A DNA stretch of 64,000 nt from Acidobacteriota bacterium. GTDB taxonomy: Bacteria > Acidobacteriota > Thermoanaerobaculia > Multivoradales > Multivoraceae. The notes under the pieces are model-generated. The model saw nothing but the letters and a program-made list of their open reading frames with translations. It searched no databases and was not told the DNA's origin. The DNA lies in assembly GCA_029263415.1 (NCBI GenBank), contig JAJCXN010000048.1:75169-139168 (forward strand), read 5' to 3'. Both the position numbers and the translations under genes were made by a program. This document shows, piece by piece, positions 9,384 through 19,548 of this stretch; positions within the stretch are counted from its first letter, which is position 1; every line of letters starts with the position of its first letter.

Positions 9384-11111
9384 TTAGCTCTCGCCGGCAA
9401 GCCCAAGCTCCTTCATGCGACGATACAAAGTCGATCGACCGATCTCGAGCTCGCGAGCGACGGCGGACAGGTTGTTCTCGTTGCTGCGAATGGCAACTTC
9501 GATCTCGAAACGCTCCCAACGATCGACGCGTTGTTTGAGGCTGCCGTTAGCAGGCTCTCGCAGCACTGGGACCGCCTCTCGAATGGCGGGCTGCAAATGC
9601 GAACTTTGCAGCAGTTGATCGCGCTCAACGAACAGTGCCGCCCGCGCCATCTCCCGCTCCAACTGGCGGATATTGCCCGGCCATGCATAGTCCATCAATA
9701 CCTGCATCGCGGCTTTCGAGATGCCCAGCACGCGGTTGCCGGATTTGCTCGCCTCACGCTTTAGAAAGTAAGCAGCAAGGTTGGCGATGTCGGCGCGTCG
9801 CTCGCTCAGCGTCGGCAACTCAACCCGCCAGTCAGCGATGCGGTGGTACAAATCGCGACGAAATTGGTCGGCCGCAAGCAACGCGTCGAGGTCCTGATTG
9901 GTGGCTGCGACCACCCTCACCCGCGCTGGTTTCGGTTCCTGTCCGCCCAGGCGATACACCTCTCCATCTTGGAGGACCCGAAGAATCTTCGCTTGGGTAT
10001 CCAGAGCCATGTCGCCAATCTCGTCGAGGAACAAGGTGCCGCCATCCGCGAGTTCGAACTTGCCTGCACGCGGACTGACCCCGGTGGCAACGCCCTGTTC
10101 GATACCGAAGAGTTCGGACTCCAAGAGATCGCTCGGCAACGCCGCACAATTGAGGGCAACGAACGCTCGCGTGCTGCGCGGTGACGCCCGGTGAATGTAA
10201 CTGGCCAGCAGTTCCTTGCCGGTGCCCGAGCCACCAGTAATCATCACGCTGATTTCGCCTCTTGCCACCCGAGCAGCGTCTTCGTATATCTGCTGCACTC
10301 GAGGCACCACCGTTGCGGGCGAAGGCCCCTTCGGCGGCGCCGCTTCGTTTCGCTCCGCCAGTGGGACCTGTTGGCCGTCAACCAGCGCCATGAACCGACT
10401 GGCGGACTCGACCAGCGTCAGATTGCGCTTCGCCAAAGACGCCGCCAACAACTCCACTTCTACTCGCGCACTGGGCCCTTTGATCTCAACCGGGTAACCA
10501 GACGCTGGCGGGCCCAACTCGCGCTCTGCCTGGTACAAGAGACCGCCCAGCGCGCTCGAGATTCGAACGCTACGACACGGCAGGGTCTCGAACAGGCAGG
10601 CTCCGGCGACTTGGGCAGCTTCGGCCAAAGGAGCGCCGGTTTCCAAGCACGAGAGCCAGGACGGAAGGTGGTCTAGCGGAACCCGCTCCAGTGAACCAGT
10701 GAATGCCGTGGTCGGCGCGTACGCCGTCGCCCGCGACTCCTTTGCAGGTGGCTCAAACCTGACAGCCGGCACGGAGTCATCATCGCCCACCGCCTCGAGT
10801 CGCCCTTCGACGGTGCCGACGGTAACCGCCGCACCGACTTCGACCGTGGTCGGCGCGTCAATCCTCCTACCGCTCACCATGGTGCCGTTGCGCGACCCCA
10901 AGTCCTCTATCTCGACAGACCCAGCTATCTCGGGGGACTCAGCTATCTCGGGGGACTCAGCCAGAACTCGCACTAGCGCGTGACGTCTGGAAACGGTCGG
11001 GTCTGTGAGTAGCAGGTCGCTGGACGCTTCTGAGCCGAGCGTCGATTCCCCGACTTGCAAAGAGAAAGCCTGCAGCGTTCCGCCCGATTCGAACACCAGT
11101 CGAAAACTCAT
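9384..11111 (-). CDS. sigma-54-dependent Fis-family transcriptional activator with N-terminal FHA domain
   Basis: FHA-like N-terminus (FRLVFESGG…TLGS…LLTDPTVSRRHALV). AAA+ sigma-54 activator motifs GGSGTGKE (Walker A) and ESELFG. C-terminal Fis-type HTH (LSAVARELEIGRSTLYRRMKELGL). Start at ATG 11111 overlaps the kinase stop (ATGA). The track start at 11267 would add 52 aa with no similarity to anything. Confidence 0.85.
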   Translation of the reverse strand: MSFRLVFESGGTLQAFSLQVGESTLGSEASSDLLLTDPTVSRRHALVRVLAESPEIAESPEIAGSVEIEDLGSRNGTMVSGRRIDAPTTVEVGAAVTVGTVEGRLEAVGDDDSVPAVRFEPPAKESRATAYAPTTAFTGSLERVPLDHLPSWLSCLETGAPLAEAAQVAGACLFETLPCRSVRISSALGGLLYQAERELGPPASGYPVEIKGPSARVEVELLAASLAKRNLTLVESASRFMALVDGQQVPLAERNEAAPPKGPSPATVVPRVQQIYEDAARVARGEISVMITGGSGTGKELLASYIHRASPRSTRAFVALNCAALPSDLLESELFGIEQGVATGVSPRAGKFELADGGTLFLDEIGDMALDTQAKILRVLQDGEVYRLGGQEPKPARVRVVAATNQDLDALLAADQFRRDLYHRIADWRVELPTLSERRADIANLAAYFLKREASKSGNRVLGISKAAMQVLMDYAWPGNIRQLEREMARAALFVERDQLLQSSHLQPAIREAVPVLREPANGSLKQRVDRWERFEIEVAIRSNENNLSAVARELEIGRSTLYRRMKELGLAGES

Positions 11112-14100
11112 TGCCCATCCCTCGTGATCAAACTCAGATCCAAATGTGGTGACAATTCCTGCAATTGCGCCAGAGACGCCGCCCTTGCTGCGCCCCACTT
11201 GGCTCGGGCGCTCGCACTCGGCGACAATTCGGCAAGCAGACCTTCGAGCGCGACCCGCGCCGCCCATGCTGCCGTCAGCGTAGGCTCGCGCTCGAGGATG
11301 CTACCAACGGTGGCCTCGCCCACAGTGGCGGCGCGCAGAGCCTCCGCAGCATCGACTGTGGCCAAGTACTCGGCGCGCCGACGCAAAGTCCGTGCGAGCG
11401 CCTCGGCATAGTAGGAATAGAACTCATCGGTCCGGCTCGCGCGCGCCTTGGTCAACGCCACTTCGAACGACGCCTTCGCATCGCCTTGCAACCGTGCCAC
11501 CTCACGTGCGCTCAAGAGCGCCATGCGCGCCTCGAGCACGGGAAACTCCGCGGGGTAGGTCTCGCGTAGCGGAGGTAGAAGCTCGGCCGCCTTCCTCAGC
11601 AAGGAGCCCACTGGCTGCCCGCGGTCAAGCCGCGTCCTCGCCTGATCCAGTCGAGAACTTGTCAGATTGAGCTGAGTCGTTGTTCGGTGCGGCGCTTCTT
11701 CGAGAATCTGTTCGAAGCCAGCAGCGGCTTCAGCGAAGCGTGGCTCGGCGTCGCCACCGCTGTCCGCCTCCCACAATGCTCGACTCCAAAGCATTAACGC
11801 AAGGTTGCCTCGCGCACTTCGATCCGCAGGGTCCGCACTCAGCGCGCGGCGGCAAGCGCTCTCGCTCCAGTGGTAGTACTCGGTCGGATCACTGCCGCGC
11901 AGCGACAGGTGGTACCCCCAGTGACTGCCCACGTTGCAGAGTTCGGCGGCGAGCTCTACTTCAACCAAGCCCGCGTTCAAAAGCCCGGTGGCGAAGGCGC
12001 CCTGGGCGCGCTGCCAAGCAGGCACCGGGTCCTCTCCACGGAGGCTAAGGAAGAGTCCATAGCGAGTCAGCGTTTGCCCGAGCTTGAGGTGTGAGTACGG
12101 ATCGCCGGGTCGCAAGTCAACAGCTTCCTCAAGTGCCTTCAAGGACTCCGCATACTGGCGATCCGGAGGGTCCCCTTGATCGCCAAGAAAATTACCCCAC
12201 ACCCAATGCAGACTCCCCAGGTGACTAAGCAATCCCGCATCACGGCGGACTCGCAGTCCCTTTCGTGCCAAGCCTTCCGTTGCCCGCAAGGTTGCTATCG
12301 GATCATCGCCACGGCCAGCCAAGGCGTTGGCCATTCGCCAACCCGCTTCACCAATGAGTGAATAGGCCGGAAGGTAGTCAGGGTTGCTTTCGAGCGCTCG
12401 GCCGCAAGCCGCCTGCGCGCTCGCAAAGGCGTCATCAGGCGGCAGCGCTTGCGCCACTCTAACTTCCATCGCTCGGATGTGGCCTCGACACTCCTGACTG
12501 AGAGCAGCCGGATCGCTACGACCAGCACCCACCGCGATCGCTATCGCCTCCAGGCCCTTTGCCAATGCGATCTGCGCTCCGGCGATGTGTCCCTTCGAAA
12601 GCTCAACCACGACCTCCCGCAGCCGAGCTTCTGCACGCAGCATTTCACCCTCATAAAACAGCGGGTTCGCCGCCGTCGCCGAGCTGCCGCGTTCTGCCGC
12701 CTCGTCGAATCGACCCTCGATCAAGGCCAACAAACCCGCGATGAACTGGGCCTCGTACACCCGCAGTCCCTCGGCAGTTTCCCGCGCTCCCTCGAGAATG
12801 CGAACTGCCCGGTCGGCTGTGCTTAGGCGCGCCTCCGCGACCGCGCTGGTGCGCGAGTCCGCCGACTCAAGACCTTGGGCTCGCTCAATCTCCTGACGAA
12901 ACCGCTCGGCCAGGGTGCGGCCCAATGCCAACTGGACCCCAGGACCATTCGCAGTCGATGATGCGGCCCCCTCTAAGGCTACCTCTGCCTCTTGCCAGTG
13001 ACCCAGCGCCATGAATCCGCGGCCTCGCGCGTAGTCTGCCGCCCCCCGCAGTCGAGCCGACATCGCTTGGGCACGGGCCTCGAGCGCAGCGATCTCCTCG
13101 AGCACGCGCCGCTCCTCTCCTCGAACATCATGGCGCGGGGCAAGATGAGCAAGCCGCAACGACGCTTCGAGACGCTCCACCGTCTGGCCCACTTCCTGGG
13201 CGAACGCTGCTTCGCGCGTTGAGCGGTTCTGGTTCCACACCGACCAAAGACCGAAGCCAAGCGTCACCAGCAGAGCGCTCGCAACCGCAACCGCCGCCAC
13301 TGGATTGCGCTGTGCCCTCCGCCACCAGCGCCGTGCCGCGCTGAGCGGTCGCGCGGTGACCGGCCGGCCGTCGAGCCACCGCTCGAGATCTTCACTGAGG
13401 GCCTGAGCGGTGGCATATCGCCGCTGGGGGACTTTCTCCAAACACTGTTCGGTGATCGCTCGCAGATCCATGGGTAGGTCAGGCGCCACCCGCGAAAGGG
13501 TCGGCGGATCCTCCTGCAACACCTTCACCAGTGAGCCCAGTTGTGAATCTGAAGCGAACGGTTGAACGCCGGCCAGCAGCTCGTACAAGAGAATCCCTAA
13601 GCCGAACACGTCGCTACGTCGATCCAGTCGCCGCAGATCACCTGCCGCCTGCTCCGGCGACATGTACCCTGGCGTGCCCAGGGCTTGGCCAGTCACGGTA
13701 AGGCCACGCGCAGCCGCAACAGTCTCACCTTCTGAAGGCTGCAAGCCGCGAGCGATGCCGAAGTCCAAGACGAAAGGCACTAATGCGCCGTCGTCGTGCT
13801 GCTCCACTAAGATGTTCGACGGTTTAATGTCGCGGTGAATCAGCCCCACCTCATGCGCGGCGTGCAGCGCGTCCGCGATGGTGTGCATGACCTGCACCTT
13901 GAGCTTCAGAGACCGGCCCTCGAGCGCTTCGTCCAGCGGCTTGCCGTCGATCAGTTGCATGCTGATAAACGGCCGCTCGTCCTGGTAGCCGACCTGGTAC
14001 ACCTTGGCTACGTTGGGGTGTTCGACCTTCGCTTGAGCGCGGGCCTCGCGCAGGAAGCGCTCCACCGCCTGCCGGTCATCGGAAAGGAGGTACTTGAGCG

Positions 14101-14188
14101 CAACCTCTCTGCCCAGATCCTCATCGAATGCACGGAGGACACGGCCCATGGCGCCTTCGCCAAGAGGGACTGCGGTGCCTAGCCGCAT
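11108..14188 (-). CDS. Ser/Thr protein kinase with one TM helix and a long TPR-like C-terminal region
   Basis: Hanks kinase motifs: LGEGAMGRV (Gly loop), VALK, HRDIKPSNIL, DFGIA, GTPGYMSPE. TM segment VAAVAVASALLVTLGFGLWSVW. About 650 aa of Ala/Leu/Arg-rich helical repeats follow. Confidence 0.85.
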   Translation of the reverse strand: MRLGTAVPLGEGAMGRVLRAFDEDLGREVALKYLLSDDRQAVERFLREARAQAKVEHPNVAKVYQVGYQDERPFISMQLIDGKPLDEALEGRSLKLKVQVMHTIADALHAAHEVGLIHRDIKPSNILVEQHDDGALVPFVLDFGIARGLQPSEGETVAAARGLTVTGQALGTPGYMSPEQAAGDLRRLDRRSDVFGLGILLYELLAGVQPFASDSQLGSLVKVLQEDPPTLSRVAPDLPMDLRAITEQCLEKVPQRRYATAQALSEDLERWLDGRPVTARPLSAARRWWRRAQRNPVAAVAVASALLVTLGFGLWSVWNQNRSTREAAFAQEVGQTVERLEASLRLAHLAPRHDVRGEERRVLEEIAALEARAQAMSARLRGAADYARGRGFMALGHWQEAEVALEGAASSTANGPGVQLALGRTLAERFRQEIERAQGLESADSRTSAVAEARLSTADRAVRILEGARETAEGLRVYEAQFIAGLLALIEGRFDEAAERGSSATAANPLFYEGEMLRAEARLREVVVELSKGHIAGAQIALAKGLEAIAIAVGAGRSDPAALSQECRGHIRAMEVRVAQALPPDDAFASAQAACGRALESNPDYLPAYSLIGEAGWRMANALAGRGDDPIATLRATEGLARKGLRVRRDAGLLSHLGSLHWVWGNFLGDQGDPPDRQYAESLKALEEAVDLRPGDPYSHLKLGQTLTRYGLFLSLRGEDPVPAWQRAQGAFATGLLNAGLVEVELAAELCNVGSHWGYHLSLRGSDPTEYYHWSESACRRALSADPADRSARGNLALMLWSRALWEADSGGDAEPRFAEAAAGFEQILEEAPHRTTTQLNLTSSRLDQARTRLDRGQPVGSLLRKAAELLPPLRETYPAEFPVLEARMALLSAREVARLQGDAKASFEVALTKARASRTDEFYSYYAEALARTLRRRAEYLATVDAAEALRAATVGEATVGSILEREPTLTAAWAARVALEGLLAELSPSASARAKWGAARAASLAQLQELSPHLDLSLITRDGQ

Positions 14189-16121: not shown

Positions 16122-16451
16122 ATGAATAGACGTCAGCGAAATCCGTATGCACAGCACCGTTCGGCCGCGAAAATGTTGATGACGGCCAGCTGCATTAGCC
16201 TGGCCCTCTTGGGCGCATGCTCTTCGTCCCTGCCCTCCGACCCAACGGAAGCCGGCAAGCAAATCGCCGAACAACGTTGCGACTGCACCAAAGCCGAAGC
16301 GCCCTACGTCGCGAGTTGCGTCAACACAGCCTCGAGAACTCTGCAAACCGGCACCGAAAAGTACGACGCGAAGGGCCGCATAGCAATGGTCAAATCATAC
16401 GAATCAGAGTTCGAGCGGTGTCCATGGGACAAGCCCGAGTTCTATGAATAG
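16122..16451 (+). CDS. small Cys-containing lipoprotein, hypothetical
   Basis: GGAGG 7 nt upstream of ATG. Lipobox ISLALLGACSS. 5 Cys in the mature part. Confidence 0.55.
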   Translation: MNRRQRNPYAQHRSAAKMLMTASCISLALLGACSSSLPSDPTEAGKQIAEQRCDCTKAEAPYVASCVNTASRTLQTGTEKYDAKGRIAMVKSYESEFERCPWDKPEFYE

Positions 16452-16806
16452 GAAACTCGAGTTGCGAACTACCAGAGACTTCTTCGTGCCGTTACAGCCG
16501 ATCCAGTCGAGCAAGCCGAGCAAGCCGAGCAAGCTTGTCGAGAGCCTCAACGCTACGGGACGGCTTTGATCCGGACAGCTTTGATCCGGACTGCGCTTAC
16601 CGTAGCCGCCGTCCCATCGACCAACCTCGAACAACTCTCACTCCGAAGAGGAAAGCCAATGCGCTCCACACTCGTCGCTGCGGTTCGCTCTTTTCCTCAT
16701 CGCATTGCTGCAAACTTGCCTGCCAGCTACTGCAGTTGTCAGAACATCACTCTTCCGATTGACACATTTATCGGTACAGCCCTTGCCCGTCTGGCGGTGG
16801 CACAGA

Positions 16807-18033
16807 CTAGCCAGTAGGCTCGCCGTTTGGAGGTGAAGATGTGGTTTTTCCAGTCGGACCGCGCAGCCGCCGCTCAGACATTCTTTGAAAGTGTCTCCCG
16901 GCGTTGGGTTCCAGGGCGAGGCCCTGGTTGCCCCGCAGAGCAACTGGGGGTGATTCTGCAACCGGCAGTGTCCGCTCGAAGCGCTGGCCCATCGGCAGAT
17001 CGCACATTTCGTCATCGCAGGATTGCCAACGGATCTCACCAGAAATCGTCACCCCAGCGGTGTCAATCCGGGCTGCATTGTTGATCGTCAATGGCAGGCG
17101 CAGCTCGAACGAACCGTGATGAACTTGGAAGGACTCTCCGGTACCGGCAAGCGTATGAAGCTCGCTCGGCGGTCGCACCAGCGGGCGCTCTACGACGCTC
17201 TCATTCTCAGCGAGCACCACGTCCACCGCGATGGTCCCTTGTGGTGCAGGTTGCGCGTAAACGTGCCGGCCTGCAGGAACGCGGAATTGCACAACAAGAT
17301 CCCTCTGCACCGTAGCGGCGAGTGAGTCGCCGTCGAGGACGATGCTCACCTCTACCGCTTCGGGTGCTGCTGCGTCGACTCTTGCTTCAAGCATGGGCTC
17401 ACCTAGGACTGCACGTAGTAACTGCTCGGGACCCGGGCGGACGGCAAGGTTGTTTTCGAAGAACTTGTGGGTGATCGCGCCGTCCGCGCCAACCACGTAG
17501 CTGCCGGGGTAGGGAATGCCAAACCAGGGATGATCGTCCGGATCGATCAGCGTGTTTAGGATGCCGAACGATCGGATGACCGCTGAGTCTGGATCCGAGA
17601 GCAAGGGATAGCTGATGCCGTGCGCTTCGCCGAAGTCACTCAGCGCATCCGCCTCGTCATAGCTCAGCGCGTACAGCGCGACGCCCGCGGCATCGAAGTC
17701 CTTCAGCCCTTTTTGCAGCTCGACCAGCAGCGAACGGCAAGGAGGTCACCAGACCGCGGAACGGTAGAAGACAAACACCGCTGGTCTTCCTGCGCGATCG
17801 GCATGCAGATCGAAGGGCCTCGCGTCCGACGTGCTGCACTGCACGTCTGGCATGGGTTCGCCAACCTCGGGCCCAGTAGGGAAGGAACCCCGGGGATCGC
17901 TTCTCGGTCCGTTGCCAGGCTGAAAGGGCCCGATGAAGCCGTCGTGGTCCTGCCAGCCTCTGTCGGTCTGAATCGCGCGTGTCTCAAGCTCCAACTTCAC
18001 TACGTGTACTACCTCTCGTAATGGCGTGGTCAT
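16807..18033 (-). CDS. candidate selenoprotein: AhpC/TSA (Bcp/redoxin)-fold thiol peroxidase or oxidoreductase with a U-x-x-C motif, fused to a DsbD-alpha-like C-terminal domain; in-frame TGA at 17746..17748
   Basis: Track ORFs 17746..18033 and 16807..17604 share one frame (17746-16807=939). Exactly 47 sense codons and a single TGA lie between them. Read-through gives …DARPFDLHADRAGRPAVFVFYRSAVW-[TGA]-PPCRSLLVELQKGLKDFDAAGVALYALSYDEADALSDFGEAHGISYPLLSDPDSAVIRSFGIL…. The TGA replaces the first Cys of the W-C-x-x-C motif. The C-terminal 200 aa (…PAGRHVYAQP… CDDEMCDLP) resemble the DsbD N-terminal alpha domain. N-terminal start is uncertain (18033 ATG, or 17853 ATG at MPDVQCS). Confidence 0.6.
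17715..17731 (-). promoter_or_regulatory. bacterial SECIS-like hairpin 15 nt downstream of the in-frame UGA (mRNA 5'-GCUGCU-GGUCG-AGCUGC-3')
   Basis: Minus-strand RNA: a 6-position stem (G-C, C-G, U·U mismatch, G-C, C-G, U-A) closes a GGUCG loop. The loop GGUC falls at +24..+27 from the U of UGA; in E. coli fdhF, G23/U24 lie in GGUC at +22..+25. The U·U mismatch parallels the bulged U17 of fdhF. Confidence 0.4.
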
Positions 18034-18393
18034 CCGGCTGGCAAAGTGTAGCCGAAGGTCCTCGGCCTAAGACAGATTTCGTGTTTGGGTAGGACGGTCT
18101 GCCGAGACGAGCTACCCAACCACACTTCCACCTCTCTACTCCGACCTCCGCTCTTCTACTCTCTTTGTACTTCCCTACTCTTTCTGGACGCTTCCCAGTT
18201 CTTGGTCTGGTTCGATCTTCAGTCCGCGGCCCTTTGGTTACTGCTGCTCCGCCGCTCTACCCCTCTGCCGCTCTGCCGGTGCCGATCCGCCCCATTCACA
18301 AGTTGCCTGCCGGTTACCCACTGGTTGCCCACTGATTGCCTGACAAGAGAGCTATCCGTTGCGTCTCCAGGGGGCCTCTACAACCGAGTCTCG

Positions 18394-19548
18394 CTACTCG
18401 GGGATCGGACCTAGTTCTGGCAAGAACGTATGCAGCACCGCGACTTTCAACCGATGCCCACTGACTCGATAGCGATTTAGGAAAACAATCACGGAGATCT
18501 CTCGTTCGGGAAAGCGAGAGAAGCTTGTGACGAAGCCTGCAACCTGACCACTGTGACTCTGCGAGCGCAGCCCTTGGTAGTCGCGGACAACCCACCCAAA
18601 TCCGTAACCAACGGCCTCACCATCCGGCAGCAGCGTCGAAGTCCACATCGCCTTCTTGGATTCGGCACTCAGTAAAACGTCACCGCCCAGTGCGTGATCC
18701 CACTTCGCCAAGTCTCGGGCTGAGGAGAGTAGCCCGCCAGCTCCTAGCGTCGACGAGGTTTCGGTGGGCATCCGGTTGATCAGCTCGCCGGCCTTGTTCA
18801 CCCAATAGCCCGATGCGCGATTAGGGATGATCGCTTCTGGGTCCGCCAAGCGGGTCTGGGTCATTGCAAGGGGCCCAAAGATACGAGACTGCAAAACCTT
18901 CCCGAGGGGACGGCCCTCGATGCGCTCGACAAGCATGCTCAACAAGAAGTAGCCGGTGTTGCTGTAGTACCAACCGGTCCCGGGCGCAAAATCCATCGGC
19001 CGTGAATGCGCTATCCGAATGACTTCTTCGGGTGTCATCCGAAAGCGATAGACGTCATAGCTTCTGATTTCCTCGTAGTCGGGAATGCCTGATGTGTGGG
19101 TCAATAGTTGGCGCACCGTGACGCCAAGCCACTCGCTGGGCAACGTCGGGAGATAGGTGTGGATAGCATCGTCCAGGTTGAGCTGACCGTCCTGAACGAG
19201 CAACATCGCCGCTGCTGAAACAAACTGCTTGCTGACTGAGCCAATCTCAAAAACGGCGTCTTCGGAAACCGGAACCGAAAGTTCAACGTTGGCCATGCCA
19301 TACGTCCTGAGATGCACCATCTCCCCTTTCGACGCAACAGCCACCAAAGCTCCGGGAATGTTGTTCTCCTTGAGATGAGCATAAATGCGGGCGTCTAACT
19401 TCGCGAATGCCTCAGCACTAGGTTGGGCGATCTGTGCAGACAGCGAGAGGCTGCAGAACAAAGTCACACTCGCTAGCAACACGCCGACTCGAACGATCGC
19501 AGAGAAGCCTGATGGGGGCGAGTCAAAGAGTCGTTTACGGGCAGCCAT
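18394..19548 (-). CDS. serine hydrolase of the beta-lactamase / penicillin-binding (class C-like) family, secreted
   Basis: S-x-x-K motif SVSKQF, YSN-like motif YYSNTGY. Signal peptide VGVLLASVTLFCSLSLSA. GGAGA 8 nt upstream of ATG. Confidence 0.85.
   Translation of the reverse strand: MAARKRLFDSPPSGFSAIVRVGVLLASVTLFCSLSLSAQIAQPSAEAFAKLDARIYAHLKENNIPGALVAVASKGEMVHLRTYGMANVELSVPVSEDAVFEIGSVSKQFVSAAAMLLVQDGQLNLDDAIHTYLPTLPSEWLGVTVRQLLTHTSGIPDYEEIRSYDVYRFRMTPEEVIRIAHSRPMDFAPGTGWYYSNTGYFLLSMLVERIEGRPLGKVLQSRIFGPLAMTQTRLADPEAIIPNRASGYWVNKAGELINRMPTETSSTLGAGGLLSSARDLAKWDHALGGDVLLSAESKKAMWTSTLLPDGEAVGYGFGWVVRDYQGLRSQSHSGQVAGFVTSFSRFPEREISVIVFLNRYRVSGHRLKVAVLHTFLPELGPIPE

What the first reader, a model, noticed from the sequence alone, without database searches (positions are those of the whole stretch)
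16807..17500. Unusual fusion of the redoxin (UxxC) domain to a DsbD-alpha-like domain with a CxxxxC pair, and no signal peptide
The C-terminal 200 aa (…SIVLDGDSLAATVQRDLVVQFRVPAGRHVYAQP…TISGEIRWQSCDDEMCDLPMGQRFERTLP) resemble the N-terminal alpha domain of DsbD (HxYW-like block; paired Cys CDDEMC, versus C-x5-C in E. coli nDsbD). The DsbD alpha domain is normally periplasmic and receives electrons from a thioredoxin-like partner. Here it is covalently fused downstream of a Sec-containing redoxin, and no signal peptide is seen at either candidate start. This could be a self-contained Sec/Cys electron relay, an architecture I cannot place in a described family from sequence alone.
Basis: inference. 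Interest (0 to 1): 0.55.

Follow-up and report, generated by a model that had tools for sequence, protein, structure and literature searches.

The report
Split-annotated selenoprotein: redoxin fused to DsbD-alpha
This is one real selenocysteine-containing gene that fuses a peroxiredoxin-fold redox domain to a DsbD-alpha-like domain without an export signal, but the fusion family was already reported from ocean metagenomes, so it is an uncharacterised known kind.

Summary
On the minus strand, one ORF (GTG 18000 or ATG 18033 to stop 16807) reads through an in-frame TGA at 17748-17746. It encodes an AhpC/TSA redoxin domain with W-U-P-P-C, a linker, and a C-terminal PF11412 (DsbD_N) domain with an invariant C-x4-C. 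There is no signal peptide.

All 62 homologous genome loci, from at least four phyla, keep the TGA, followed by a covarying SECIS-like hairpin. Databases split the gene into an 84-aa "hypothetical" and a roughly 284-aa "redoxin" ORF. No Cys form of this clade was found.

The modelled C-domain matches solved nDsbD and ScsB alpha domains, and its two Cys align with DsbD C103 and C109. The N-domain has a peroxiredoxin fold. However, Sec sits at the thioredoxin-type nucleophile position, and the Prx catalytic Pro, Thr and Arg are replaced.

The architecture is not undescribed. Members appear in the 2008 GOS selenoproteome as "Prx-like 1". A 2021 GOS re-analysis reports [quoted passage not shown].

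Sec and Cys relatives with signal peptides also exist. Interest is low to moderate.

The parts
16807..18000 (-). Complete selenoprotein CDS: 397 codons from GTG 18000, including Sec at codon 85, with the stop at 16809-16807. An alternative ATG at 18033 would add 11 residues.
   Evidence: Single frame with one internal TGA. N-terminal fragments of homologs are about 84 aa and end at the Trp before the TGA, matching a GTG 18000 start. tblastn matches in 62 loci run across the TGA.
17866..18000 (-). Conserved hydrophilic N-terminal extension of about 45 residues (...GW.D.DGF.GP..PG.GPRSDP.G.FPTGP.VG). It is not a signal peptide or a transmembrane segment.
   Evidence: Conserved in the loci (invariant G, P, R and F columns). 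Maximum hydropathy is 0.8.
17467..17865 (-). Peroxiredoxin-fold redoxin domain (Pfam AhpC-TSA / Redoxin).
   Evidence: Pfam E 1e-24 and 1e-15. A PDB profile search hits BCP, ResA and AhpE. A full-length Cys homolog model has Bcp4, BcpB and AhpE as best structural matches (target-normalised TM about 0.8).
17746..17748 (-). In-frame TGA read as selenocysteine (U85 counted from GTG 18000; U96 counted from ATG 18033), in the motif W-U-P-P-C.
   Evidence: TGA at this codon in 62 of 62 homologous loci. It aligns with the first Cys of ResA WCxPC and of the Cys-form homologs WCPYC.
17737..17739 (-). Cys88, the partner of Sec in U-x-x-C. It aligns with the peroxidatic Cys of BCP and AhpE and with the second Cys of ResA.
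   Evidence: HMMER alignments. Invariant column.
17715..17731 (-). SECIS-like hairpin GCUGCU-GGUCG-AGCUGC, starting 15 nt after the UGA. The window copy has a U.U mismatch (17729 opposite 17717) where other loci have A-U.
   Evidence: 99.2% of cells paired in 40 sequences. Two pairs show compensatory changes (G-C to C-G, and G-C to A-U). 0 of 500 shuffles reach the observed covariation score, and slid controls give 0-39% pairing. Hairpin energy is -5.8 kcal/mol, against -6.6 to -10.4 in relatives.
17311..17466 (-). Inter-domain segment. Its N-terminal part is conserved; it is followed by a linker that varies in sequence and length.
   Evidence: Variable, gapped columns. Part of the segment (fragment residues 122-127) has pLDDT below 50 in the window model.
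16975..17310 (-). nDsbD-like immunoglobulin-fold domain (Pfam PF11412 DsbD_N).
   Evidence: Pfam 31.9-34.2 bits against a cut-off of 25. pLDDT above 90 over most of this domain in the model. The top 12 Foldseek PDB hits are E. coli and Neisseria nDsbD and ScsB alpha.
17002..17019 (-). Invariant Cys pair C328-x4-C333 (CDDEMC), aligned with the nDsbD active-site residues C103 and C109.
   Evidence: Invariant in alignments A1, A4, A5 and A6. hhalign places WQSCDD-EMCDLP against YQGCADAGFCYPP.
16867..16911 (-). Conserved C-terminal helical tail EPNA..HF..M..RR.
   Evidence: Invariant E, P, H, F, M and R columns. Predicted helices at residues 272-294 of the fragment model.
16810..16866 (-). C-terminal extension (LRGPTGKTTSSPPNGEPTG) that has no aligned counterpart in the homologs compared; most of them end here.
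   Evidence: No aligned counterpart in the relatives compared, most of which end here. pLDDT below 50.

Best explanation
Identity. The locus encodes one cytoplasmic selenoprotein of about 397 aa. It belongs to the 'Prx-like (U/CxxC) + Pfam11412' fusion family known from ocean metagenomes.

Shown here:
- The UGA at 17748 is decoded as Sec, judged by a conserved in-frame TGA and a covarying hairpin 15 nt downstream.
- The N-domain has a peroxiredoxin scaffold but a thioredoxin-type active site. Sec85 occupies the position of the attacking Cys in W-C-x-x-C, and Cys88 is its partner. A Pro aligns with the Prx catalytic Arg.
- The C-domain is an nDsbD-like Ig fold. It keeps a Cys pair at the positions of the DsbD alpha-domain redox pair.

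Inferred mechanism:
- The protein is a two-centre thiol/selenol-disulfide oxidoreductase.
- The Sec85-Cys88 selenosulfide and the Cys328-Cys333 disulfide exchange with each other, within one chain or across a dimer. This would resemble the way Trx-fold partners (cDsbD, DsbC, CcmG) exchange with nDsbD.
- Reducing equivalents would pass from a cytoplasmic reductant, probably thioredoxin or a low-molecular-weight thiol, to an unknown client.
- The direction of flow between the two centres is not determined.
For: One gene, with Sec:
- TGA at the same codon in 62 of 62 loci from Gammaproteobacteria, Acidimicrobiia, Thermoanaerobaculia, Limisphaerales and others.
- The Pfam AhpC-TSA match spans the TGA.
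- The hairpin shows 99.2% pairing and two compensatory pairs.
- All 73 N-terminal hits are short fragments (56-162 aa, mostly about 84 aa). All of the top 120 C-terminal hits start just after the TGA. No Cys form of this clade was found.
- Cys forms in more distant clades carry WCPYC at the same site.

Cytoplasmic: an upstream in-frame stop and low N-terminal hydropathy.

Trx-type chemistry:
- U aligns with the first Cys of ResA, and with the Thr or Ser of the T/SxxC motif in AhpE and BCP.
- C88 aligns with the peroxidatic Cys.
- The Prx Arg116 of AhpE aligns with the second Pro of the conserved GIPYPG motif. The Prx Pro aligns with the family's invariant Arg (R80).

nDsbD-like second centre: PF11412 is found in 39 of 39 members. 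Foldseek's top 12 hits are nDsbD and ScsB alpha. The Cys pair aligns with C103 and C109.

Compact two-domain unit: a full-length Cys homolog models with pLDDT 93.7 and pTM 0.89.

Prior description of the family: PMC2398784 and PMC9402790.
Against: - No coordinates were available, so the distance and orientation between the two redox centres were not measured.
- The window protein itself could only be modelled without its first 85 residues (pTM 0.51).
- No gene neighbour is conserved across lineages, so nothing points to a donor or a client.
- No Sec-insertion genes or tRNA-Sec lie in this 64-kb window. The rest of the genome was not visible.
- The window's hairpin has a U.U mismatch not seen in the 39 other aligned sequences.
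- The N-domain's closest structures are peroxiredoxins, not TlpA or ResA, so peroxide chemistry is not excluded.
- No biochemical data exist for any member, as far as the searched library shows.
Confidence: 0.55

Rival explanations
1. Self-recycling Sec peroxidase. The Prx-fold domain reduces hydroperoxides using Sec85 (selenenic acid resolved by Cys88). The nDsbD-like Cys pair then acts as a built-in recycling dithiol, comparable to AhpF-AhpC or Prx-Grx hybrids.
For: The best Pfam hit is AhpC-TSA. The best sequence match to a solved structure is a BCP thiol peroxidase. The structural neighbours of the homolog model are Bcp4, BcpB, AhpE and Prx6 (TM about 0.8, rmsd about 2 A). Cys88 aligns with the peroxidatic Cys. 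From general knowledge, selenols react fast with peroxides.
Against: Three of the four Prx catalytic residues are not kept. The Prx Pro aligns with the family's invariant Arg (R80), Thr is replaced by Sec, and Arg by Pro. The W-U-x-x-C motif and the Pro at the Arg position match thioredoxin-type oxidoreductases such as ResA. The literature files such UxxC proteins as Prx-like thiol:disulfide oxidoreductases, separately from TxxU Prx.
Confidence: 0.2
2. The C-terminal Ig-fold domain is not a redox relay. It would be a client-binding or adaptor module, or a soft-metal (Cu, Hg, Cd) site formed by C-x4-C and neighbouring Asp/Glu residues. In that case only the UxxC centre does redox chemistry.
For: The Cys spacing differs from nDsbD (x4 against x5). 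The motif CDDE.CD is strongly acidic. ScsB, whose alpha domain is among the structural hits, is linked to copper tolerance (from general knowledge). Ig-fold hits beyond nDsbD are adhesins and chaperones.
Against: Both Cys are invariant across clades down to about 30% identity, including exported and Cys-type relatives. They align with the catalytic pair of nDsbD. Only nDsbD and ScsB domains give Foldseek E<1e-4.
Confidence: 0.15
3. The TGA is a genuine stop. The locus would then hold two separate genes, or a pseudogene: an 84-aa peptide and a 265-284-aa DsbD_N protein, as current annotations show.
For: Public gene calls split it this way: P0001 (265 aa), the 284-aa 'redoxin domain-containing protein' entries, and the 84-aa 'hypothetical protein' entries. 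No Sec machinery is seen in the window.
Against: One Pfam domain spans the TGA. The TGA is fixed in 62 of 62 loci across phyla, with protein-level conservation on both sides. It sits exactly where Cys homologs have the active-site Cys. A covarying hairpin follows it. The family is already listed as a selenoprotein.
Confidence: 0.02
4. The protein is exported and the nDsbD-like domain works in the periplasm as usual. The true start or export signal would have been missed.
For: Relatives with clear signal peptides exist, both Cys forms (P0251, P0257, P0282 and others) and a Sec form (L065). From general knowledge, nDsbD domains are normally periplasmic.
Against: An in-frame stop lies 11 codons upstream of the ATG. 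There is no hydrophobic stretch anywhere (maximum 19-residue hydropathy 1.09). Orthologs start at the same place, giving 84-aa N-fragments with the same hydrophilic, conserved extension. No twin-arginine motif was seen on reading the N-terminus.
Confidence: 0.03

Closest known systems
GOS 'Prx-like protein (U/CxxC) fused with DsbC domain (Pfam11412)' (PMC9402790, 2021), listed earlier within 'Prx-like 1' selenoproteins (PMC2398784, 2008)
   Same: Same Pfam domains (PF00578 + PF11412) and the same U-x-x-C motif. It occurs in marine bacteria. Sequences in GOS Dataset S1 carry the same ...FTRSAVWUPPCRTQLVELEKG... and N-terminal extension.
   Different: Nothing essential differs; the window gene is another member. 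The papers give no mechanism, localisation, SECIS analysis or fold assignment to nDsbD, and call the domain 'DsbC' after what I take to be the former Pfam name of PF11412.
DsbD alpha domain (nDsbD; PDB 1L6P, 3PFU, 1VRS, 1JZD) and ScsB alpha domain (6C29)
   Same: Ig-like fold (Foldseek E 5e-7 to 3e-5, target-normalised TM 0.6-0.7). It meets the Pfam DsbD_N threshold. The redox Cys pair sits at the aligned positions. From general knowledge, its natural partners are Trx-fold proteins.
   Different: No signal peptide and no membrane beta domain. The domain is fused C-terminally to a Prx-fold domain rather than placed N-terminal to a transporter. Cys spacing is C-x4-C rather than C-x5-C. Sequence identity is only about 17%, and a profile search of PDB sequences did not recover nDsbD.
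TlpA / ResA / CcmG-type thiol-disulfide oxidoreductases
   Same: W-C-x-P-C-[RK] type active site. U85 and C88 align with the two ResA Cys. A Pro aligns with the Prx catalytic Arg. From general knowledge, these proteins are physiological partners of DsbD or CcdA.
   Different: Sec replaces the nucleophilic Cys. The protein is cytoplasmic and not membrane-anchored. The overall fold is closer to BCP and AhpE peroxiredoxins than to ResA. It carries an extra N-terminal extension and the C-terminal domain.
Peroxiredoxins of the BCP/PrxQ and AhpE types
   Same: Best Pfam, PDB-sequence and structural matches for the N-domain. Cys88 aligns with the peroxidatic Cys.
   Different: The catalytic Pro, Thr and Arg are replaced by Arg, Sec and Pro. 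The Sec position is that of UxxC proteins, not of the TxxU Sec-peroxiredoxins.
SelL-related redox proteins (NCBIfam NF040769)
   Same: Prx-like fold with a Sec-containing x-x motif. It is the best NCBIfam hit.
   Different: The score of 36.9 bits is far below the 120-bit cut-off, so this is not a member. No NCBIfam model reaches its cut-off for this protein.

Membership tests
Bacterial selenoprotein (Sec decoded at UGA) | In-frame UGA conserved among orthologs, aligned with Cys in homologs | tested here: met
   TGA in 62 of 62 loci. Cys forms have WCPYC, WCSFC or WCPFC at the same site.
Bacterial selenoprotein (Sec decoded at UGA) | SECIS stem-loop shortly downstream of the UGA, with a G/U-containing apical loop | tested here: met
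   A 6-bp stem with a GGUCG loop starts 15 nt after the UGA. 99.2% paired, with 2 compensatory pairs. The window copy has one U.U mismatch (-5.8 kcal/mol). No Rfam family matched at gathering threshold.
Bacterial selenoprotein (Sec decoded at UGA) | Host genome encodes selA, selB, selC and selD | not testable with these tools
   None were seen in the 64-kb window. The rest of the 400-kb contig and the genome were not available.
Bacterial selenoprotein (Sec decoded at UGA) | Selenium present in the protein | not testable with these tools
   Needs 75Se labelling or mass spectrometry.
Prx-like (U/CxxC) + Pfam11412 fusion selenoprotein (GOS family) | PF00578 or PF08534 domain with U/CxxC, followed by PF11412 in one chain | tested here: met
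   39 of 39 relatives carry PF11412. The family is described.
DsbD alpha-domain family (Pfam DsbD_N, PF11412) | Pfam model score above the gathering threshold | tested here: met
   31.9 bits (whole protein) and 34.2 bits (C-half) against a cut-off of 25.
DsbD alpha-domain family (Pfam DsbD_N, PF11412) | Ig-like fold superposable on nDsbD | tested here: met
   The top 12 Foldseek PDB hits are nDsbD or ScsB alpha, with target-normalised TM 0.36-0.69 (0.51-0.69 for the nDsbD chains; 0.36 for the 247-residue ScsB chain) and probability 1.0. pLDDT is above 90 over most of the domain.
DsbD alpha-domain family (Pfam DsbD_N, PF11412) | Redox-active Cys pair at the positions of C103 and C109 | tested here: met
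   hhalign aligns C328 and C333 with the two nDsbD Cys, with a 1-residue deletion. The pair is invariant in the family.
DsbD system (alpha-beta-gamma electron transporter) | Periplasmic location, with a membrane beta domain or CcdA partner | tested here: not met
   No signal peptide or transmembrane segment. No gene neighbour is conserved across lineages, and the window neighbours scanned against Pfam show no DsbD- or CcdA-type domain.
Peroxiredoxin (functional peroxidase) | Catalytic tetrad Pro-x3-Thr-x2-Cys plus a distal Arg | tested here: not met
   Aligned to AhpE and BCP: the Prx Pro aligns with R80, the Thr/Ser position with U85, Cp with C88 (kept), and the Arg with Pro.
Peroxiredoxin (functional peroxidase) | Prx/AhpC-TSA fold | tested here: met
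   Pfam E 1e-24. The homolog model matches Bcp4, BcpB and AhpE at TM about 0.8.
Thioredoxin-type thiol-disulfide oxidoreductase (TlpA/ResA-like) | W-C-x-x-C active site with the nucleophile at the first position, plus a cis-Pro loop | tested here: inconclusive
   U85 and C88 align with the ResA Cys pair. A Pro aligns with the Prx catalytic Arg. The cis conformation was not verifiable, and the NCBIfam ResA and DsbE scores are far below their cut-offs.
SelL-related redox protein (NF040769) | NCBIfam score above cut-off | tested here: not met
   36.9 bits against a 120-bit cut-off.

The most novel reading that the evidence does not exclude
The nDsbD-like domain, otherwise known only as a periplasmic electron shuttle, here works in the cytoplasm. 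It would be rigidly packed against a selenocysteine redox centre, forming a soluble, membrane-independent counterpart of the DsbD gamma/alpha pair. The wider superfamily (exported and cytoplasmic, mostly Sec-dependent, and systematically split by gene callers) would then be an unrecognised class of two-centre disulfide or peroxide reductases, abundant in marine bacteria. The exported members might act as a 'gamma-alpha' module for CcdA-type transporters.
Probability: 0.35. Interest if true: 0.5.

Novelty: already known. Interest (0 to 1): 0.3.

Why it matters
Practically, this is an annotation problem. In every database entry seen here, the gene is split at the Sec codon into an 84-aa 'hypothetical protein' and a 265-284-aa 'redoxin domain-containing protein'. 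No NCBIfam model reaches its cut-off for the protein. Marine selenoproteomes and redox inventories therefore undercount it.

Biologically, the family is abundant in marine Gammaproteobacteria and Acidimicrobiia. In this clade no Cys form was found. It pairs a selenosulfide centre with a DsbD-alpha-type dithiol outside the periplasm.

If the two centres do exchange electrons, this would be a compact soluble model for studying nDsbD/Trx-fold recognition and Sec versus Cys catalysis. No function has been tested for any member, so the biochemical question is open. The architecture itself is not a discovery.

Tried and rejected
1. Full-length structure of the window protein. Structure prediction refuses any sequence that is not an exact window translation, so U-to-C editing was rejected. 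A DNA reference containing the TGA was also rejected. Only the 312 residues after Sec could be modelled. A full-length Cys homolog (P0221) was modelled instead.

2. Measuring Cys/Sec distances.

3. Mixing N- and C-fragments in one MAFFT alignment. The fragments were overlaid wrongly, so alignment A3 was discarded.

4. Sequence-profile search of the PDB with the C-domain. No nDsbD hit; only a chance EF-G match at E=1. The relationship shows up only through Pfam, hhalign and fold comparison.

5. Conserved gene neighbourhood. None was found across the 62 loci. An LLM-type oxidoreductase recurs in 21 loci. The contexts of a Cys form and of two more distant Sec-form relatives were uninformative.

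6. Search for a Cys-containing ortholog of this clade. None was found among the 73 N-terminal hits.

7. Sec machinery, tRNA-Sec, Rfam families and other candidate selenoproteins in the window. None were found.

8. Promoter and terminator scans around the gene. No sites were found.

9. Literature search for 'PF11412', 'DsbD_N' or 'nDsbD-like'. Nothing relevant turned up. The relevant paper was found through 'Prx-like'.
Full report
**What is there**

The feature lies on the minus strand. Translating 16807-18159(-) gives a single frame with one internal stop, a TGA at 17748-17746, inside the motif FYRSAVW-U-PPCRS. Mechanical ORF listing shows only the 265-aa piece downstream of it (16807-17604). 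This is also the only form in which the gene appears in the public protein collection (P0001).

With U written as C, Pfam gives three matches above their gathering thresholds:
- AhpC-TSA, residues 57-189, E 1e-24.
- Redoxin, E 1e-15.
- DsbD_N (PF11412), residues 242-353, E 1.5e-7, 31.9 bits against a cut-off of 25.

**One gene, read through a Sec codon**

A scan of one genome per species returned 62 loci from five groups: marine Gammaproteobacteria (Pseudomonadales, Ca. Azotimanducaceae, K189A clade), Acidimicrobiia, Thermoanaerobaculia, Limisphaerales, and MAGs labelled Alpha- or Deltaproteobacteria. The tblastn matches run across the stop. All 62 loci carry TGA at the same codon, in W-U-P-P-C.

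Downstream of the TGA is a 6-bp hairpin, GCAGCU-GGUCG-AGCUGC, starting 15 nt after the UGA. Its properties in 40 sequences:
- 99.2% of cells are paired.
- Two pairs show compensatory changes (G-C to C-G in Acidimicrobiia, G-C to A-U in several Gammaproteobacteria).
- 0 of 500 shuffles reach the observed covariation score.
- Slid controls give 0-39% pairing.

The window's own copy has a U.U mismatch (A to T at 17729, giving Gln to Leu). This lowers the hairpin from about -10.4 to -5.8 kcal/mol. That is still close to the range of other family variants, -6.6 and -7.9 kcal/mol.

**Start codon and localisation**

A search with the N-terminal 99 residues returned 73 proteins. All are short fragments (56-162 aa, mostly about 84 aa) that stop at the Trp before the TGA. 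None is a Cys-containing full-length form. The 120 best hits to the longer query are all 261-313 aa, and the sampled ones begin just after the TGA.

The 84-aa fragment length places the start at GTG 18000. This gives a 397-aa protein with U85, C88, C328 and C333. ATG 18033 would add 11 residues.

An in-frame stop lies 11 codons upstream of that ATG. The N-terminus is hydrophilic: the maximum 12-residue Kyte-Doolittle score is 0.8, and the 19-residue maximum over the whole protein is 1.09. It is a conserved Gly/Pro-rich extension, GW.D.DGF.GP..PG.GPRSDP.G.FPTGP.VG. The absence of a signal peptide is therefore confirmed for this clade.

**The C-terminal domain**

- All 39 homologous C-domains tested match PF11412 (best E 2e-11).
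- The window protein could only be modelled from the residue after Sec, for the reason given under "Limits". In that model most of the C-domain has pLDDT above 90.
- Foldseek against the PDB returns E. coli nDsbD (1L6P, 3PFU, 1VRS, 1JZD, 5NHI), Neisseria nDsbD (6DNV, 6DPS) and the ScsB alpha domain (6C29) as its top 12 hits. E-values run from 5e-7 to 3e-5 and target-normalised TM reaches 0.69.
- hhalign of the family profile against the E. coli nDsbD sequence aligns WQSCDD-EMCDLP with YQGCADAGFCYPP. C328 and C333 therefore fall on C103 and C109, with one residue fewer between them.
- Both Cys are invariant in every alignment made, including distant clades.
- A plain profile search of PDB sequences did not recover nDsbD. 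The relationship is remote in sequence.

**The N-terminal domain**

By sequence it is closest to BCP/PrxQ, ResA and AhpE. A full-length Cys homolog (P0221) models at pLDDT 93.7 and pTM 0.89. Its best structural neighbours are Bcp4, BcpB and AhpE, at TM about 0.8 and rmsd about 2 A. The scaffold is therefore a peroxiredoxin fold.

The active site is not a peroxiredoxin one. In the HMMER alignments:
- U85 aligns with the Thr or Ser of the Prx T/SxxC motif, and with the first Cys of ResA WCxPC.
- C88 aligns with the peroxidatic Cys and with the second ResA Cys.
- The Prx Pro aligns with the family's invariant Arg (R80).
- AhpE Arg116 (GIANRGTFVVD) aligns with the second Pro of the conserved GIPYPGTYVVD motif.

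Three of the four Prx catalytic residues are thus replaced. Sec sits where thioredoxin-type enzymes place their attacking thiolate.

**The wider family**

A profile search of 1.84 billion representatives found 2459 proteins at E<=1e-3 and 118 at E<=1e-30. Most of the top 150 begin at M[TE]QLVELQ or MELQ, immediately after the U-x-x-C position. For two of them the upstream DNA was read. It shows an in-frame TGA in ...W*PFC...: one with a clear signal peptide (L065) and one without (L067).

Fourteen representatives are full-length forms carrying Cys or another residue at the Sec position. Three have no signal peptide (WCPYC, WCSFC, WCPFC). Eleven have one.

So the fusion is widespread and apparently mostly Sec-dependent, judging from the truncated gene calls. 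It occurs in both exported and cytoplasmic versions, and the window gene belongs to a cytoplasmic clade in which only Sec forms were found. No gene neighbour is conserved across lineages. In the window the neighbours are unrelated: a beta-lactamase-family hydrolase, small lipoprotein-like ORFs, a cupin, a sigma-54 activator and a Ser/Thr kinase.

**Comparison with what is known**

- The GOS selenoproteome paper (PMC2398784) lists family members in Dataset S1 under 'Prx-like 1'. One example is JCVI_READ_1095516003056...FTRSAVWUPPCRTQLVELEKG... A paralog read extends into the C-domain. Its section on fusions does not mention this one.
[quoted passage not shown] I take PF11412 to be the family now named DsbD_N.
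- A 2026 review still lists Prx-like UxxC proteins as predicted thiol:disulfide oxidoreductases without a tested function.
- No NCBIfam model reaches its cut-off. The best is SelL-related, at 36.9 bits against 120.

The architecture is therefore already described bioinformatically. The points I did not find in those papers are the following:
- the fold assignment to nDsbD, with the Cys pair on C103 and C109;
- the Trx-type rather than Prx-type active site;
- the covarying SECIS-like hairpin;
- the apparent absence of Cys forms in this clade;
- the cytoplasmic versus exported split;
- the systematic mis-annotation.

**Mechanism**

Shown: this is a selenoprotein with two conserved redox-type centres, on a Prx-fold domain and an nDsbD-fold domain, without an export signal. 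In a close-architecture homolog, AlphaFold predicts a compact and confidently oriented two-domain unit (pTM 0.89).

Inferred: the Sec85-Cys88 selenosulfide and the Cys328-Cys333 disulfide exchange, as Trx-fold proteins do with nDsbD. This would make a two-centre cytoplasmic reductase. The direction of flow, the donor and the client are unknown.

The main rival is a self-recycling Sec peroxidase. The fold favours it; the active-site residues disfavour it.

**Limits**

- The structure tool rejected any edited sequence, so the window protein was modelled without its first 85 residues (pTM 0.51).
- No coordinates are exposed, so the inter-centre distance could not be measured.
- No Sec-insertion genes or tRNA-Sec are present in the 64-kb window. 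The rest of the genome was not visible.

**Verdict**

Novelty: already known as a metagenomic selenoprotein fusion family, and uncharacterised biochemically. Interest: 0.3.

Noticed in passing
window 17715-17731 (-): The window's SECIS-like hairpin carries a U.U mismatch (T at 17729, giving Gln to Leu) that none of the 39 other aligned sequences has. It weakens the stem from about -10.4 to -5.8 kcal/mol. It is unclear whether Sec insertion efficiency is affected.
   Followed up: partly
window 16496-16635 (intergenic, just downstream of the gene's stop): Three short tandem arrays lie between the small ORF 16122-16451(+) and the selenoprotein stop: AGCCGAGCA x4.3 (16496-16534), GGACAGCTTTGATCC x2.3 (16558-16591) and TCGAACAACC x1.9 (16617-16635). 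No terminator-like site was found there.
   Followed up: partly
window 16810-16866 (-): The window protein has a roughly 19-residue Pro/Ser/Thr/Gly-rich C-terminal extension with no aligned counterpart in the homologs compared. Most of them end right after the conserved ...MSERR tail.
   Followed up: no
window 9384-14188 (-): An FHA + sigma-54 activator (AAA+) + HTH_8 regulator is followed by a 1026-aa Ser/Thr protein kinase with TPR repeats, and the two ORFs overlap by 160 bp. From general knowledge this resembles Myxococcota- or Acidobacteria-style signalling. It has no evident link to the selenoprotein.
   Followed up: partly
window 18394-19548 (-): A secreted beta-lactamase-family serine hydrolase (Pfam E 2e-73) lies immediately upstream on the same strand. 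It is not conserved next to the selenoprotein in other loci.
   Followed up: partly
P0251, P0267, P0282 and similar proteins: Distant Cys-form homologs keep the amino-acid motif C-K-x-Q-L-V-E-L-Q. In the Sec forms this stretch encodes the SECIS hairpin. It could be a structural helix motif, or a fossil of a Sec ancestor (Sec-to-Cys conversion).
   Followed up: no
P0272 and P0267: Two full-length representatives show Trp (FRSASWWPFC) or Ser (FRSADWSPYC) at the Sec position. The Trp case may be a gene call made with genetic code 4 (TGA = Trp) on a Sec gene. The Ser case may be a real substitution.
   Followed up: no
P0205 (616 aa): One representative holds two tandem copies of the redoxin + DsbD_N unit in one chain. 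The first copy is truncated at its N-terminus, probably at a Sec codon. The second has SADWSSYC.
   Followed up: no
L008/L010 (OY761542.1), L009/L027 (PBRP01), L053/L054 (PBMG01): Several MAGs carry two copies of the gene at different places in the genome. The copies are about 60-70% identical to the window protein in the first two MAGs. In PBMG01 they appear identical over the region read upstream of the Sec codon.
   Followed up: no
L039-L060 (Acidimicrobiia loci): An LLM-class (luciferase-like) oxidoreductase ORF recurs within a few kb of the selenoprotein in 21 loci. It does not recur in the Gammaproteobacteria or in the window.
   Followed up: partly
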